This document shows, in pieces, positions 6,063-47,637 of a DNA stretch of 64,000 nucleotides; positions within the stretch are counted from its first letter, which is position 1, and each line of letters begins with the position of its first letter. The DNA comes from a virus. The DNA lies in IMG/VR virus record IMGVR_UViG_3300042273_000448, one strand, 5' to 3'. Both the position numbers and the translations under genes were made by a program. The notes beneath the pieces were generated by a model. The model was not told the DNA's origin. It ran no database searches and saw only the letters and a list, made by a program, of their open reading frames with translations.

Positions 6063-6083
6063 CTAAGTTATTGAAATAATTAG
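6063..6083 (+). repeat. intergenic motif copy CTAAGTTATTGAAATAATTAG
   Basis: One of five copies of a 21-bp motif (see also 24079, 24123, 47571, 47616). Confidence 0.6.
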
Positions 6084-6088
6084 GGATA

Positions 6089-7474
6089 TATAAACAATTT
6101 ATAATTATATCCAAGTTCCTCTGTTGCTTTTTGTTTTAATATATTGATATATATATCTGCATCATATGTGTATTTAGATTTTGTTTCAATAATGAGATTA
6201 TCTTTAGGAATATAAAAATCAGGAAAATATCTATGTGTCTTTTTATCTTTATCGCTAAAATATCAAATCTCTGGCATTTCACATCTTTCATATAAAATTT
6301 CATCTTCAGAATATTCATTTAATAAAAATTCAAATGTTTTATTTTCATACCCTTGAAGTTTTATTATTTTACCCGATGGAAGTGTAAAATCATGTCATGA
6401 ATTCTTGTACCCCTGACCAATGTTATTTTCAAAATAATGTTGTAAAAATCAGGGCGTACCAAATCGTTTAAAGTTAGTTTCTTTACATTTTTCTATATAT
6501 TCGGGTGTCTGAGAAAAACTTTCAAAGCCATATCTATCAATATTGGTTTGTTTAAACTGGTCCCTATTATTATAATTCTCATCACCATATTTCTCAAGCT
6601 TAGTGACCTTTCCTTTATCTCTAAATTTCTGAATGGATAGGGTTTGCTCTTGGCCATATCTTTCAAGATTAGTCTCTTTATACTTATCTCTATTGTTATA
6701 ATTCTCATCACCATATTTCTCAAGCCTTGTCTGCCTGTTCTTTTCCATGTTGTTATAATTCTCATCACCATATTTCTCAAGCTTAGTGACCTTTCCTTTA
6801 TCTCTAAGTTCTTTAACTTGCAATGTATATTCAACACCATATTTATTTAAATTAGTGACCTTTCCTTTATCTCTAAATTCTTTAACTTGTAAAGTATGCT
6901 CAACACCATATTTCTCAAGGTTGCCTACTTTAATTTTTTCTTTTACTTCTTCAGATTGACTCACGTTTTCTACACCATATTTTTCCAAACATGTTTGTTT
7001 TGATTTTTCAATATTATTATAATTTTCATTGCCATATCTTTCAAGTTTGGTTTTTCTAATTTTATCTGTATTTGTGCAAAAACCATATCTCTCTATTTTT
7101 GTAGCATTCGCCTTTTTATTTGCGGCTGTTCTATCAACACATAGTTTTGAACAATATGTCTTATAACCACCTGAGCCAAATCCACAAAATTTTAAAGCCT
7201 TACCACATGTAAGGCATCTTTTAATACTGTCAATATGATGATATATATGATAAAATCTTTGAATTAAAGTGGGATTAATCTCATTAAGAAAGGATGTTAA
7301 CTTTAATATTTCACTATATAGATCATAACCAAAAATCTCTATAAATTTATCTTTTTTAAACACATATGGGTTAATCGCGCCAGATTTACTAATGGCCTTT
7401 AAAATTATTTTATTGATATCCATTATTTCTCCAATTAAAAAAGAAGATATGAAGGATAAACGTTTATCCTTCAT
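6089..7474 (-). CDS. zinc-finger / tandem-repeat / PD-(D/E)xK-like nuclease protein (homing-endonuclease-like), about 461 aa
   Basis: Track ORF 6449..7474 has CxxC...C Zn motifs followed by seven or more about 21-aa repeats (T.LEKYGDENYNN... and LEKYGVE...). It ends with TGA. Manual read-through through 3 further TGA adds a C-terminal domain with HRYFPDFYIPKDNLIIETKS (PD..E.K signature) to TAA at about 6089. The DNA shows matching 60-bp tandem repeats. Confidence 0.5.
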
Positions 7475-7490
7475 ATCTATTTATATATTT

Positions 7491-8456
7491 TTAATTAAAG
7501 TTTTCTAATTCAGCAAGAAGATCGGCTTCAGACAAATCATCTGAATCGGAAGATTCTGTAACTTTCTTTTCTTCTTTAGGAGCCTCATCCTTCTTTGTTT
7601 CAGTTGGCTTCTTTTCTTCCTTAGGAGCCTCAGTCTTTTCAGAAGGAGCAGAAGATTCAGAAGCATATCTTTCAAAATCCTTGGCAATAAGATCCCAGAA
7701 CATTTCATCCTTCATAGCCTTAATGAGATCTGACATAGACTTCATATTTTTCTTTAGATACTCATTGAGATCTACTCGAGTTTCCATAAGCTTATCAATT
7801 TCTTCATCTGAACCGATAGCACTTGGACGACGAGCAAATGTGCTCATAGAATATTCGGGGAAACTCTGATTCTGGCCTCCGGACTGTGTTCCTACCTTAA
7901 TGATAAAATTATAACCATCAGGACCCGGATCAAAGATTGCTGCACCTAGACCATTACGTGTATCTTTAATTTCTTCAGCGAGTTTCTGTTCAAGTTTAGA
8001 AGGAAATTCATAAAGAAGAACCTTACCTTCCTGTTTAGATTCATCATCAGCAGCCTTACCAGCATCTCTGGGATCATATGCAACAAAAACATTAGATACA
8101 TACTTCTCTTTACGCTTAAGCTTCCTGGCTTCATTCTTATCGCTTTCAGAGCCCTGAAAAAGCTTATTAACTACTGAACAGATAGGACAAGGGTTGTTAA
8201 AATCCTCAGTCTTGGGGCACTGCATATAGACCCATTTTTCACCCATCTTTCACATATGATAGAAAATCTTCTTATAAAATCCTGAAGCGGGGTCGGGAAG
8301 AAATCGTACTTCATATGTCTTAGGATTATCTGAAGGCCCTTTTTCTAGAGACTTTCACTTCTTGTCAATAAAAGCCCCACCAAATGTATTCTGTGTTTCA
8401 TTTTTCTTTTCTTCTGTGAACTCTTTGAAGAGATCTTTACTTACCCACTTGCTCAT
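7491..8456 (-). CDS. gp32: ssDNA-binding protein, T4 gp32-like (321 aa with 2 in-frame TGA)
   Basis: Track ORF 7491..8246 carries a zinc-binding CPKTEDFNNPCPIC region and an acidic C-terminal tail. The upstream extension (TGA at 8250-8252 and 8355-8357) adds KTYEVRFLPDPASGFYKKIFYHM-W-KMGEKWVYMQC, matching T4 gp32 AVIRFLPSKND...GFKKNGKWYIETC. ATG at 8454-8456. Confidence 0.8.
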
Positions 8457-8595
8457 AATTCTTTCTCCTTTTATTTTTTGTTTAATTACTAAGCACACCG
8501 TCTTGAATAAAAATTAACTTGTATCTATGTGAGCAACCTCCTACATATTATTTATAGAGTTTATTATAATTAGAGATGATCATATGTAAACAAGG

Positions 8596-47400: not shown

Positions 47401-47435
47401 TATTATTCCTCTAAAAAACTTTATTGTGTTTTAAT

Positions 47436-47443
47436 TATTTATA
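47436..47443 (-). promoter_or_regulatory. late promoter TATAAATA (minus strand)
   Basis: Plus-strand tatttata, 36 nt before ATG 47400. Confidence 0.5.
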
Positions 47444-47557
47444 GAAATTTCTAATGGAGAAAAAGAGGATTTTAAGAAATCCTAAATTATTAAAATTATT
47501 AACTATTCGAAATCCTAAGAAAATGATGTATAAAACATTACGTTTTTCTATAGATTT

Positions 47558-47591
47558 TGGTGGATTTCTCGTAAGTTATTGATATTATTAG
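47558..47591 (+). repeat. intergenic motif copy: TTGGTGGATTTCTCGTAAGTTATTGATATTATTAG
   Basis: Fourth copy, degenerate core. Confidence 0.55.
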
Positions 47592-47604
47592 GAAAACTAA
47601 GATT

Positions 47605-47637
47605 TTGGTGGATTTCTAAGTTATTGAAATAATTAAG
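47605..47637 (+). repeat. intergenic motif copy: TTGGTGGATTTCTAAGTTATTGAAATAATTAAG
   Basis: Fifth copy, 47 bp from copy 4, in the 590-bp divergent noncoding region. Confidence 0.6.

What the first reader, a model, noticed from the sequence alone, without database searches (positions are those of the whole stretch)
6063..47637. Recurring 21-bp motif CTAAGTTATTGAAATARTTAG, three times extended by TTGGTGGATT, confined to the long noncoding regions
Five same-orientation copies occur at 6063, 24079, 24123, 47571 and 47616, two pairs about 45 bp apart. All lie in the three largest gene-free regions (5.97-6.09 kb, 23.97-24.98 kb, 47.40-47.99 kb), which are also where modules meet. The motif is partly palindromic (CTAA...TTAG). 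It could be a regulator binding site, origin iterons, or hotspots associated with mobile genes.
Basis: seen in the sequence. Interest (0 to 1): 0.55.

Follow-up and report, generated by a model that had tools for sequence, protein, structure and literature searches.

The report
Repeated promoter-like cassette, T4-like phage
The 21-bp motif is real and conserved, and looks like the core of a bacterial-type promoter inside a ~300-bp regulatory cassette that an uncultivated T4-like phage carries about five times per genome; this is a variant of the promoter/stem-loop cassettes already known in T4-type phages, and its function is inferred, not shown.

Summary
There are five + strand copies (6063, 24078, 24123, 47571, 47616), against 0.05 expected by chance, and none lies in coding sequence. 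Two weaker same-strand copies sit at 23968 and 47482.

The window comes from a T4-like myovirus that reads TGA as Trp. It uses T4-type late promoters (TATAAATA) and T4/PST-type early promoters (TTTACA-N16-17-TAnnnT).

The motif reads as an extended -10 promoter, TGn(A/T)ATnnT. Its variable positions are the weakly constrained -10 positions. In S3 and S5, TTGGTG lies 17 nt upstream as a -35-like hexamer.

The motif is one block of a conserved cassette with a fixed order and orientation:
- a late-promoter-like box
- S4, then S5 exactly 45 bp later
- a hairpin
- a TTTACA promoter

What follows the cassette is always on the same strand: a 600-nt structured ncRNA, a leader or small RNA, or + strand genes.

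A 164.7-kb relative carries at least five copies. Orthologous sites are conserved while their flanks diverge.

Best reading (about 45%): a special class of rightward promoter inside a PeSL-like composite cassette. Three things point to an added or alternative protein-binding or origin role: the invariant "spacer", the gap-free spacing, and orphan copies that face gene 3' ends. Interest is moderate.

The parts
6063..6083 (+). S1, a solo motif copy. TG at 6072-6073, -10-like AATAAT at 6075-6080, no -35-like hexamer. Predicted TSS near 6087.
   Evidence: The same 27 nt are identical in relative L032/L150 while the flanks are about 70% identical.
6020..6056 (.). Hairpin AAATAGGG...CCCTATTT just 5' of S1. 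It is shared with a leftward TTTACA-N16-TATATT promoter (6022 to 5995) for the Hsp20-like gene 5640-5966(-).
   Evidence: In the relative the stem is longer and the loop differs.
23968..23988 (+). Weak motif copy (15.4 bits). It overlaps the start codon of gene 23231-23974(-).
   Evidence: It aligns with the first S-like block of other cassettes.
24034..24050 (+). Conserved box TAATATAATATACACAG (family consensus TATA(A/T)ATATACAC, exact TATAAATA in some relatives). It is flanked by the inverted repeat 23998-24023 / 24049-24074.
24078..24098 (+). S2, the upstream copy of the pair. -10-like AATCAT, no in-register -35.
24112..24143 (+). S3 with its extension: TTGGTG (24112-24117), 17-nt spacer, TGa, AATAGT (24135-24140). 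Predicted TSS near 24147.
   Evidence: Orthologues in L191 and L162.
24188..24215 (-). Leftward promoter-like site TTTACA-16-TATAAT (11 of 12). It faces S3/S2 and the Acb3/Tad3 gene block.
   Evidence: TGTAAA is conserved in L191 and L162.
24232..24272 (+). Rightward TTTACA-17-TAAATT promoter-like site plus TATAAATA (24265-24272), directly upstream of the ncRNA.
24305..24901 (+). Conserved structured ncRNA of about 600 nt downstream of the S2/S3 cassette. It ends in a hairpin with 30-nt arms (24817-24898).
   Evidence: 30 compensatory pairs among 3 sequences. No Rfam match.
47482..47502 (+). Weak motif copy (16.6 bits), the first S-like block of the cassette.
47525..47542 (+). Box GATGTATAAAACATTACG, a diverged version of the TATA(A/T)ATATACAC box.
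47557..47591 (+). S4 with TTGGTGGATT 20 nt from the -10-like TATTAT (47583-47588), so the -35-like hexamer is out of register.
   Evidence: Upstream copies are degenerate in relatives.
47605..47636 (+). S5: TTGGTG (47605-47610), 17-nt spacer, TGa, AATAAT (47628-47633). Predicted TSS near 47640.
   Evidence: In four paralogues of the relative it reads TTGGAG-17-TGaTATAAT.
47641..47673 (+). Hairpin immediately after S5 (CCTGGAAA...TTTCCAGA).
   Evidence: The stem is kept through changed sequences in relatives (T-A to C-G in L033/L131; a different stem in L151/L167).
47725..47753 (+). TTTACA-17-TAGTTA promoter-like site. Its -35 hexamer starts 89 nt after the S5 19-mer core (47617-47635); this distance is 85-89 nt in most cassettes.
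47754..47811 (+). Conserved leader (...GTTAATATATTAACTTGGTACGGAGGGTATAG...ATTGATTGGTGAAAC) upstream of gene 47889-48863(+). In relative L158 the same sequence is followed by an intrinsic terminator, which makes it a small RNA there.
   Evidence: No conserved fold.
47436..47443 (-). T4-type late promoter TATAAATA for the adaptor-like gene 46598-47401(-). It shows that the leftward gene does not need the motif.

Best explanation
The 21-mer is the core of a rightward (+ strand) promoter used by the host-type sigma-70 RNA polymerase. Within the 21-mer, T10-G11 is the extended -10 'TG' and positions 13-18 are the -10 hexamer ((A/T)ATnnT). In S3 and S5, TTGGTG sits 17 nt upstream as a weak -35.

The promoter is one module of a composite cassette of about 300 bp that is dispersed about five times per genome. 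Its order is always the same: weak S copy, TATAAATA-like box, S4, S5 (45 bp after S4), hairpin, TTTACA-type early promoter. The cassette launches rightward transcription into a 600-nt structured RNA, a conserved leader or small RNA, or early genes. The hairpin just after S5 would form the 5' end of the S5 transcript.

The upstream copy of each pair (S2, S4) and the weak copies are decaying duplicates of the kind produced by slippage or recombination between such cassettes. Solo or truncated copies (S1, and several in relatives) are remnants that would give short antisense transcripts.

Shown: the sequence anatomy, the conservation, the co-orientation and the downstream RNAs. Inferred: that RNA polymerase initiates there, the timing (early or middle), and any role of the hairpin.
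For: 1. The motif is non-random and confined to non-coding DNA.
2. The only variable positions of the 21-mer are 1, 13, 16, 17 and 21. That gives -10 hexamers AATAAT, AATCAT, AATAGT, TATTAT and AATAAT, with A at -11, T at -7 and TG at -15/-14 invariant.
3. In relatives the hexamer is TATAAT, TATTAT or AATAAT, and the -35-like hexamer is TTGGTG, TTGGCG, TTGGAG or TTGAAG at 17 nt.
4. Five of the 11 intergenic extended -10-like matches in the window are these sites.
5. The cassette is always co-oriented with two other promoter types, and with what follows it:
   - a + strand ncRNA with 30 compensatory pairs and many G-U pairs;
   - a small RNA plus intrinsic terminator in L158;
   - + strand genes in the window, L151, L131 and L167.
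6. The leftward neighbours have promoters of their own: TATAAATA at 47436, TTTACA sites at 6022 and 24215.
7. Orthologous sites are conserved islands in diverged flanks.
8. The hairpin after S5 is kept by compensatory change.
9. Composite promoter/stem-loop cassettes with degraded, mis-spaced duplicate boxes are described for T4-type phages (PMC4122927).
Against: - The 15 nt between the putative -35 and -10 (TTTCTAAGTTATTGA) are invariant. Sigma-70 contacts do not explain this, and the TTTACA-class promoters of the same phage do not show it.
- Twelve cassettes align without a single gap from the box through S4 to S5. The S4-S5 distance is exactly 45 bp everywhere, a constraint that independent promoters do not need.
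- The -35 matches TTGACA at only 3 of 6 positions, so the simple sigma-70 scan does not call the sites. It is absent from S1, L155, L167, L187 and L188.
- Several copies point into the 3' end of a convergent gene with nothing obvious to transcribe: S1, L150, L033, L155, L166 and L187.
- Hairpin energies do not consistently favour the + strand.
- No transcript data were available.
Confidence: 0.45

Rival explanations
1. The motif copies are phased binding sites for a sequence-specific DNA-binding protein. This could be a phage activator or repressor, or a host architectural protein such as IHF. The protein would control the TTTACA promoter about 87 nt downstream, or the converging leftward promoter at 24215. 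The promoter likeness would then be secondary, or the site would be an operator that overlaps a promoter.
For: - Invariant core TAAGTTATTGA and strict 45-bp spacing of S4 and S5.
- Gap-free alignment of 130 columns across 12 cassettes with no conserved RNA pairing.
- Near-constant distance from S5 to the TTTACA -35.
- Partial dyad CTAA..TTAG.
- The reverse complement of the GATAT variants (TATCAATAACTTA) fits the IHF consensus WATCAANNNNTTR. This rests on my own knowledge of the consensus; it was not tested.
- S3 and S2 lie between the leftward promoter at 24215 and its first gene.
- Similar 19-mers occur as direct or inverted pairs in unrelated viral contigs.
Against: - The dyad is asymmetric. 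The left arm is invariant, the right arm varies at positions that mirror invariant ones, and one base is unpaired.
- No helix-turn-helix or other DNA-binding family was found among 30 small proteins of the window. Two thirds of the genome lie outside the window, so this is weak evidence.
- Four of the five window copies carry a mismatch to the IHF consensus.
- The host is unknown.
Confidence: 0.25
2. The cassettes are T4-type replication origins. A promoter (S5, or the neighbouring early or late promoter) makes a transcript that forms an R-loop in the easily unwound DNA downstream and primes leading-strand synthesis. The evenly spaced repeats would play the part of the oriE 'iterons'.
For: - T4 has at least five origins. 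[quoted passage not shown] Active origins tend to lie where the transcribed strand switches (PMC3016281).
- Here there are at least five cassettes in the 164.7-kb relative, at about 3.9, 27.8, 52.9, 120.6 and 150.7 kb.
- S4/S5 sits at a strand switch and a local minimum of cumulative GC skew.
- The orientation is independent of the flanking genes.
Against: - This is purely an analogy.
- S1 and S2/S3 are not at skew turning points.
- The DNA after S5 is a hairpin with G-C pairs, not a notably A+T-rich stretch for a 70% A+T genome.
- No initiator gene was seen.
- The role of the T4 iterons is itself undefined.
Confidence: 0.12
3. The cassette is mainly a selfish or recombinogenic repeat (PeSL-like or MITE-like). 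It spreads and is homogenised by recombination, so the motif is conserved by gene conversion rather than by a function of its own.
For: - There are dispersed copies about 80% identical in unrelated gene contexts, plus truncated 'half' cassettes (L166, L187, L033).
- An endonuclease-like gene is inserted exactly at the 3' edge of S1 and is absent in the relative.
- The S4/S5 region is inverted in the relative compared with the window, and cassette copies there lie in both orientations.
- PeSL-mediated shuffling is documented.
Against: - S1 is conserved as an isolated 27-nt island without the rest of the cassette.
- Block-wise conservation with fixed spacing across two diverged cassette groups indicates selection on the blocks themselves.
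- No terminal inverted repeats or target duplications were identified.
Confidence: 0.1
4. The motif acts as an RNA hairpin (CUAAGUUAUU/AAUAAUUAG) or as a protein-binding RNA operator in a transcript.
For: There is a partial dyad. The copies would be transcribed from the upstream TATAAATA-like box, or in reverse complement from the leftward promoter at 24215.
Against: - Changes in the right arm are never compensated in the left arm.
- RNAalifold finds no conserved pair in 12 cassettes.
- The stem would be A-U only and would carry a bulge.
Confidence: 0.03

Closest known systems
PeSLs (promoter-early stem-loop cassettes) of T4-type phages (Arbiol et al. 2010; Comeau et al. 2014, PMC4122927)
   Same: Both occur in T4-like myoviruses. 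Both are small conserved composite regulatory cassettes that combine a sigma-70-like promoter with stem-loops, are repeated in intergenic DNA, and have degraded or mis-spaced duplicate boxes. Both lie near indels and rearrangements. This phage also has the T4/PST-type consensus TTTACW-N17-TAYWAT, sometimes with a stem-loop just upstream (6020-6056 plus 6022).
   Different: - The S unit is not followed by a Shine-Dalgarno sequence and a start codon.
- It often points against its neighbouring genes.
- It has an invariant spacer and a different -35.
- It comes as a phased pair inside a much longer multi-promoter cassette.
- There are about five copies per genome rather than dozens.
Extended -10 (TGnTATAAT) sigma-70 promoters
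   Same: TG at -15/-14. The -10 hexamer has invariant A(-11) and T(-7). The -35 is weak or missing.
   Different: The 11-15 nt upstream of the TG are invariant, which this promoter class does not require. No start-site data exist.
T4 middle promoters (MotA box at -30 plus a sigma-70 -10)
   Same: A sigma-70-type -10 combined with a conserved upstream box that replaces a good -35. This would be a third promoter class beside the early and late ones, and it would be used at origins.
   Different: The conserved box (-27 to -13) neither matches TTTGCTTTA nor lies at -30. MotA and AsiA were not found in the window. The T4-like phages closest by capsid protein, Pelagibacter phage HTVC008M and the cyanophages, are to my knowledge without MotA.
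T4 replication origins oriE, oriF and oriG
   Same: About five per genome, about 100 bp, promoter-based. oriE has evenly spaced direct repeats and an early promoter. Some lie at strand-switch points.
   Different: No replication data, no clear unwinding element, and a different repeat length and spacing (21-mer at 45 bp against 12-mers).
IHF binding sites (WATCAANNNNTTR)
   Same: The reverse complement of S4 and of the relatives' GATAT variants matches the 13-mer consensus, with an A/T-rich 5' flank.
   Different: The commonest variant (GAAAT) has a mismatch. The 'NNNN' is invariant here. The host and its IHF are unknown.

Membership tests
PeSL (promoter-early stem-loop) cassette | Sigma-70-like promoter with -35, about 17 nt of spacer, and -10 | tested here: inconclusive
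   The -10 with TG is present in all copies. A -35-like TTGGnG or TTGAAG at 17 nt is present in S3, S5 and many relatives, absent in S1 and several relatives, and out of register in S4. The simple consensus scan does not call the sites.
PeSL (promoter-early stem-loop) cassette | Stem-loop (terminator) just upstream of the promoter | tested here: inconclusive
   S1 has the hairpin 6020-6056 directly upstream, conserved in L032. In the cassettes an inverted repeat brackets the upstream box, and the clearest hairpin lies downstream of S5. None passes the terminator scan.
PeSL (promoter-early stem-loop) cassette | Promoter followed by the Shine-Dalgarno sequence and start codon of the downstream gene | tested here: not met
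   No copy is followed by a ribosome-binding site and ORF. The nearest + strand start is 256-301 nt away. Several copies face gene 3' ends.
PeSL (promoter-early stem-loop) cassette | Many dispersed copies associated with indels and shuffling between close relatives | tested here: met
   At least 5 copies in the 164.7-kb relative. An endonuclease-like gene is inserted at the edge of S1. There are truncated cassettes and an inverted segment. The copy number is, however, low.
Extended -10 sigma-70 promoter | TGn immediately 5' of a -10 hexamer with A at -11 and T at -7 | tested here: met
   All five window copies and all S5-type copies of relatives.
Extended -10 sigma-70 promoter | Transcription start about 7 nt downstream of the -10 | not testable with these tools
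   No transcript data were available.
T4-type replication origin (oriF/oriG/oriE kind) | Promoter plus downstream unwinding element that supports R-loop-primed replication | not testable with these tools
   Promoter-like sites are present. An unwinding element is not evident. Only analogy to PMC3016281.
Iteron-type origin | Cluster of evenly spaced direct repeats bound by an initiator encoded nearby | tested here: inconclusive
   There are two strong repeats at 45 bp plus one weak repeat per cassette. No initiator-like family among 30 small proteins. Binding was not tested.
IHF binding site | Match to WATCAANNNNTTR with an A/T-rich 5' flank | tested here: inconclusive
   Read directly from the sequences. 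S4 and the GATAT variants match. S1, S2, S3 and S5 have one mismatch (TTTCAA). The consensus is taken from memory. Whether the host has IHF is unknown.
Known RNA family (Rfam) for the motif regions or the downstream RNA | Covariance-model match | tested here: not met
   Only tRNAs reach the gathering score in the window. Nothing relevant appears at E<=10 in 23900-25100.

The most novel reading that the evidence does not exclude
The cassettes are not ordinary promoters but phased nucleoprotein sites. They could be the replication origins of this phage clade (a promoter plus iteron-like repeats, as at T4 oriE), or a binding array for an unknown phage factor that defines a third, 'middle-like' promoter class and switches on a clade-specific 600-nt structured RNA.
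Probability: 0.17. Interest if true: 0.65.

Novelty: new variant of a known kind. Interest (0 to 1): 0.4.

Why it matters
[quoted passage not shown] It is reused about five times per genome to drive non-coding RNAs and early genes.

This extends the PeSL idea, in which regulatory cassettes act as units of expression and of genome shuffling, to a distant branch and to a different architecture.

It also gives concrete predicted start sites for testing, and it points to a 600-nt structured RNA with no known family. The strict 45-bp phasing and the invariant spacer are handles for finding the factor that reads the motif. Should the cassettes prove to be origins, they would be a sequence-defined origin signature, which T4 itself lacks.

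Tried and rejected
- **Chance or compositional artefact:** rejected.
- **Promoter for the leftward flanking genes:** rejected. The reverse complement carries no conserved -35/-10, and those genes have their own TATAAATA or TTTACA sites.
- **T4 late promoter or MotA box within the motif:** neither is present (read from the sequences).
- **RNA hairpin or structured leader across the cassette:** no conserved pairs in 12 copies. The conserved leader after the TTTACA promoter has no supported fold either.
- **Strand of the post-S5 hairpin from G-U asymmetry:** ambiguous.
- **Rfam:** nothing but tRNAs.
- **GenBank phages:** no nucleotide match for the window segment 14000-24000, the ncRNA region or the S4/S5 region.
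- **Nearby regulator:** Pfam on 30 small proteins found no DNA-binding family.
- **Orthologue of gene 23231-23974 by protein scan:** none found.
- **More homologues of the ncRNA through a 22-mer scan:** only the two known contigs.
- **Host clue from a scan of species genomes:** 18 scattered single hits, four of them in Bdellovibrionota MAGs. None resembles the cassette, and there is no protein similarity to the window.
- **Literature search for the sequence strings:** nothing relevant.
- **Hits to the 19-mer in unrelated viral or metagenome contigs:** the number is close to my rough composition-based estimate of chance, so they were not used as evidence.
- **L033 and L131:** initially read as unrelated phages sharing the island. 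They come from the same sample series as the window's capsid gene, so they may be other parts of related genomes.
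Full report
**Observation**

The pattern CTAAGTTATTGAAATARTTAG, with up to three mismatches, occurs five times, all on the + strand: at 6063, 24078, 24123, 47571 and 47616. Shuffled sequence gives 0.05 matches. Exact TTGGTGGATT occurs only at 24112, 47557 and 47605, just 5' of three copies. Both pairs are 45 bp apart.

A weight-matrix scan separates three groups:
- five strong sites at 26-31 bits;
- two weaker same-strand sites in the same gaps (47482 and 23968) at 15-17 bits;
- noise at 11 bits or less.

No site is in coding sequence. The invariant positions are TAAGTTATTGA.AT..TTA. Positions 1, 13, 16, 17 and 21 vary.

**What the window is**

Reading TGA as sense raises long-ORF coverage from 0.76 to 0.91 and joins many fragments. 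In-frame TGA falls on conserved tryptophans, such as the sheath motifs WWAPAG and VVWGQKT and sites in gp32 and UvsW (the motifs are recognised from my own knowledge).

The genes are those of a T4-like myovirus: a Gp23 capsid protein, prohead protease and scaffold (Pfam marks), a sheath, UvsW-like and UvsX-like proteins, gp32, and eight tRNAs. The capsid protein is at most 38% identical to any GenBank phage; the best match is Pelagibacter phage HTVC008M. There is no nucleotide match to GenBank phages.

The exact capsid protein occurs in JGI sample 3300042272 and in several Logan assemblies.

**Promoter vocabulary of this phage**

TATAAATA, the T4 late promoter, lies 27-50 nt upstream of many starts on the appropriate strand. 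These include the capsid, scaffold, sheath and terminase genes and gene 46598-47401 (at 47436, - strand).

A second class, TTTACA-N16-17-TAnnnT, lies 22-40 nt upstream of many other genes. It matches the T4/PST PeSL promoter consensus TTTACW-N17-TAYWAT (PMC4122927). The motif under study belongs to neither class.

**Anatomy of the motif**

On the + strand the 21-mer reads as an extended -10 promoter. T10-G11 is the TG, A12 is the n, and positions 13-18 are the hexamer. The hexamers are AATAAT, AATCAT, AATAGT, TATTAT and AATAAT. The variable positions are -12, -9 and -8, while A(-11) and T(-7) never change.

In S3 and S5, TTGGTG lies exactly 17 nt upstream. In S4 the same decamer is 20 nt away. 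S1 and S2 have none.

The reverse complement offers no conserved -35/-10 pair. The dyad CTAAGTTATT/AATAATTAG is asymmetric: the left arm is invariant, the right arm varies, and the changes are not compensated. This argues against both a hairpin and a symmetric operator.

**Relatives**

Pattern scans of IMG/VR and of JGI metagenomes brought in many chance hits and one true clade.

The main relative is the 164.7-kb contig Ga0265295_1000108 (= IMGVR_UViG_3300028601_000019). It is 70-92% identical to the window over shared genes.

Other relatives are smaller contigs of the same metagenome (L151, L155, L162, L167, L187, L188) and L033 and L131 from samples 3300042269 and 3300042271.

Orthologues of all three window loci exist:
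- **S1 (L032/L150).** 27 nt are identical in flanks about 70% identical. The endonuclease-like gene 6080-7474 that abuts S1 in the window is absent there.
- **S2/S3 (L191, L162).**
- **S4/S5 (L035/L192, L151).**

The large relative holds at least five S5-type copies, at about 3.9(+), 27.8(-), 52.9(-), 120.6(+) and 150.7(+) kb. Four of them read TTGGAG-17 nt-TGaTATAAT, a perfect extended -10.

**The cassette**

Aligning copies from different gene contexts shows that the motif is one block of a larger unit. The order and orientation never change:
1. a weak S-like copy;
2. a box TATA(A/T)ATATACAC(G)ATTTTT, which is an exact TATAAATA in L155 and L187 and is bracketed by an inverted repeat;
3. S4;
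4. S5, exactly 45 bp after S4;
5. a hairpin whose stem is kept through different sequences;
6. a TTTGTTTACA-N17-TAnnnT site, 85-89 nt after S5.

What follows is always on the same strand:
- **A 600-nt RNA (window 24305-24901).** It is conserved in L191 and L162, with 30 compensatory pairs among 182 predicted pairs and many G-U pairs. The + strand MFE is -190.5 (z -4.2), against -152.9 (z -1.9) for the - strand.
- **A conserved leader of about 60 nt (47754-47811).** In L158 it is closed by an intrinsic terminator, which makes it a small RNA gene lying against the direction of its neighbours.
- **+ strand genes.** These are 47889 in the window, and genes in L151, L131 and L167.

Truncated cassettes and the solo S1 face the 3' ends of convergent genes.

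**Interpretation**

The simplest account is that the whole cassette is a rightward multi-promoter region and the S units are promoters in it. S5 would be the functional copy. S4, S2 and the weak copies would be decaying duplicates, as described for degraded PeSLs.

Four facts do not fit a plain promoter:
- The 15 nt between the -35 and the -10 are invariant.
- Twelve cassettes from two diverged groups align without a gap over 130 columns. The sequence between the blocks is poorly conserved, and no RNA pairing is conserved.
- The -35 is weak or absent.
- Orphan copies have nothing obvious to transcribe.

These facts favour an additional or alternative reading as phased protein-binding sites. 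They also keep alive the analogy with T4 origins, which number about five per genome, are promoter-based, include evenly spaced repeats at oriE, and are partly located at strand switches (PMC3016281).

At the S2/S3 locus a well-matched leftward TTTACA-16-TATAAT site (24215-24188) would transcribe through S3 and S2 toward an Acb3/Tad3 anti-defence block. If S3 fires, the two promoters converge. Interference between them is possible but is pure inference.

**Comparison with known systems**

The closest described system is the PeSL of T4-type phages. The resemblance is in kind: a composite, repeated, recombination-prone promoter/stem-loop cassette in T4-like phages. One defining feature fails, because the S promoter is not followed by a ribosome-binding site and a gene. 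The architecture also differs: a phased pair, an invariant spacer, a length of 300 bp and about five copies. I therefore file it as a new variant, not a member.

Membership in the extended -10 promoter class is met at the sequence level only. The origin, iteron and IHF readings could not be tested.

**Verdict**

This is a real, conserved, clade-specific regulatory repeat. It is most likely a promoter module (about 0.45). A substantial chance remains that it is, or also is, a phased binding site or an origin element. Interest is moderate. The 600-nt structured RNA that one cassette drives may be the more novel object.

Noticed in passing
window 24305-24901 (+); L191:4013-4596; L162:1184-1781: A conserved, highly structured non-coding RNA of about 600 nt with no Rfam match. 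Three sequences give 30 compensatory pairs. It has its own TTTACA and TATAAATA promoters and ends in a hairpin with 30-nt arms. An exact 22-mer from it occurs in only two IMG/VR contigs..
   Followed up: partly
whole window: TGA is read as tryptophan: there are 93 in-frame TGA against 168 TGG codons in the ORF set. No suppressor or Trp tRNA(UCA) is among the eight tRNAs at 11.2-13.3 kb. Many structural genes contain no TGA at all.
   Followed up: partly
window 21410-23974 (-) and 61479-62373 (-): There is an anti-defence-like gene block just left of the S2/S3 cassette: DUF5662, Tad3 (Thoeris inhibitor), Acb3 (CBASS inhibitor), and an ORF with a weak sub-threshold CpXC hit. NADAR and a weak Macro domain lie near the right end of the window.
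   Followed up: no
window 6080-7474 (-), compared with L032:420-588: A 464-aa protein with repeated (E/D)KYG..NYNN units looks like a homing endonuclease. This is read from the translation and has no family test. It is inserted exactly at the 3' edge of S1 and is absent from the 164.7-kb relative. Proteins with similar repeat units are encoded at 16935-18239 and 56391-57881 (read from the translations; L032 holds homologues of both). A SegE-like GIY-YIG gene lies at 5076-5546.
   Followed up: partly
window 47754-47811 (+); L158, L131, L192, L151, L167, L188: A conserved leader (GTTA(A/T)A..TAAC palindrome, then GGTACGGAGGGTATA) follows the cassette's TTTACA promoter in several gene contexts. 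In L158 it ends at a bidirectional intrinsic terminator (L158:1116-1149), so it is a small RNA of about 100 nt there. No conserved fold was found.
   Followed up: partly
window, many intergenic sites (e.g. 2718, 3088, 6022, 8590, 14013, 16303, 63136 on the - strand; 28949, 30287, 34133, 35333 on the + strand): There are two clear promoter classes as in T4: TTTACA-N16-17-TAnnnT (early type, some with a stem-loop just upstream, so PeSL-like) and TATAAATA (late type) 27-50 nt before structural genes.
   Followed up: partly
unrelated IMG/VR and metagenome loci (e.g. L003, L005, L012, L014, L021, L023, L060, L049/L085): Among hits to TAAGTTATTGAAATNNTTAG, about 10 of 25 distinct contexts have NN = CA. 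Several lie in contigs of 55-61% G+C, with partial direct or inverted copies nearby. This may be a wider motif family, or it may be coincidence.
   Followed up: partly
window 42.7-51.4 kb, compared with Ga0265295_1000108 49-58 kb: The segment holding the S4/S5 cassette is inverted in the 164.7-kb relative, whereas the 5.6-18 kb segment is collinear. Cassette copies in that genome lie in both orientations. Recombination between cassettes is possible but was not examined.
   Followed up: no
window 24978-28916 (-): The large terminase gene appears split by intein-like insertions (C...SHN motifs) and carries a GIY-YIG-like segment. The 144-aa ORF at 24978-25412 starts like a Hint domain but has no Pfam match. 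This is read from the translations; only the 144-aa ORF was tested.
   Followed up: no
L208, L211, L215, L216 (genome-contig scan): Four of the 18 species-genome hits to the 22-nt pattern are Bdellovibrionota MAGs. The contexts do not resemble the cassette, and there is no protein similarity to the window, so this is probably chance.
   Followed up: partly
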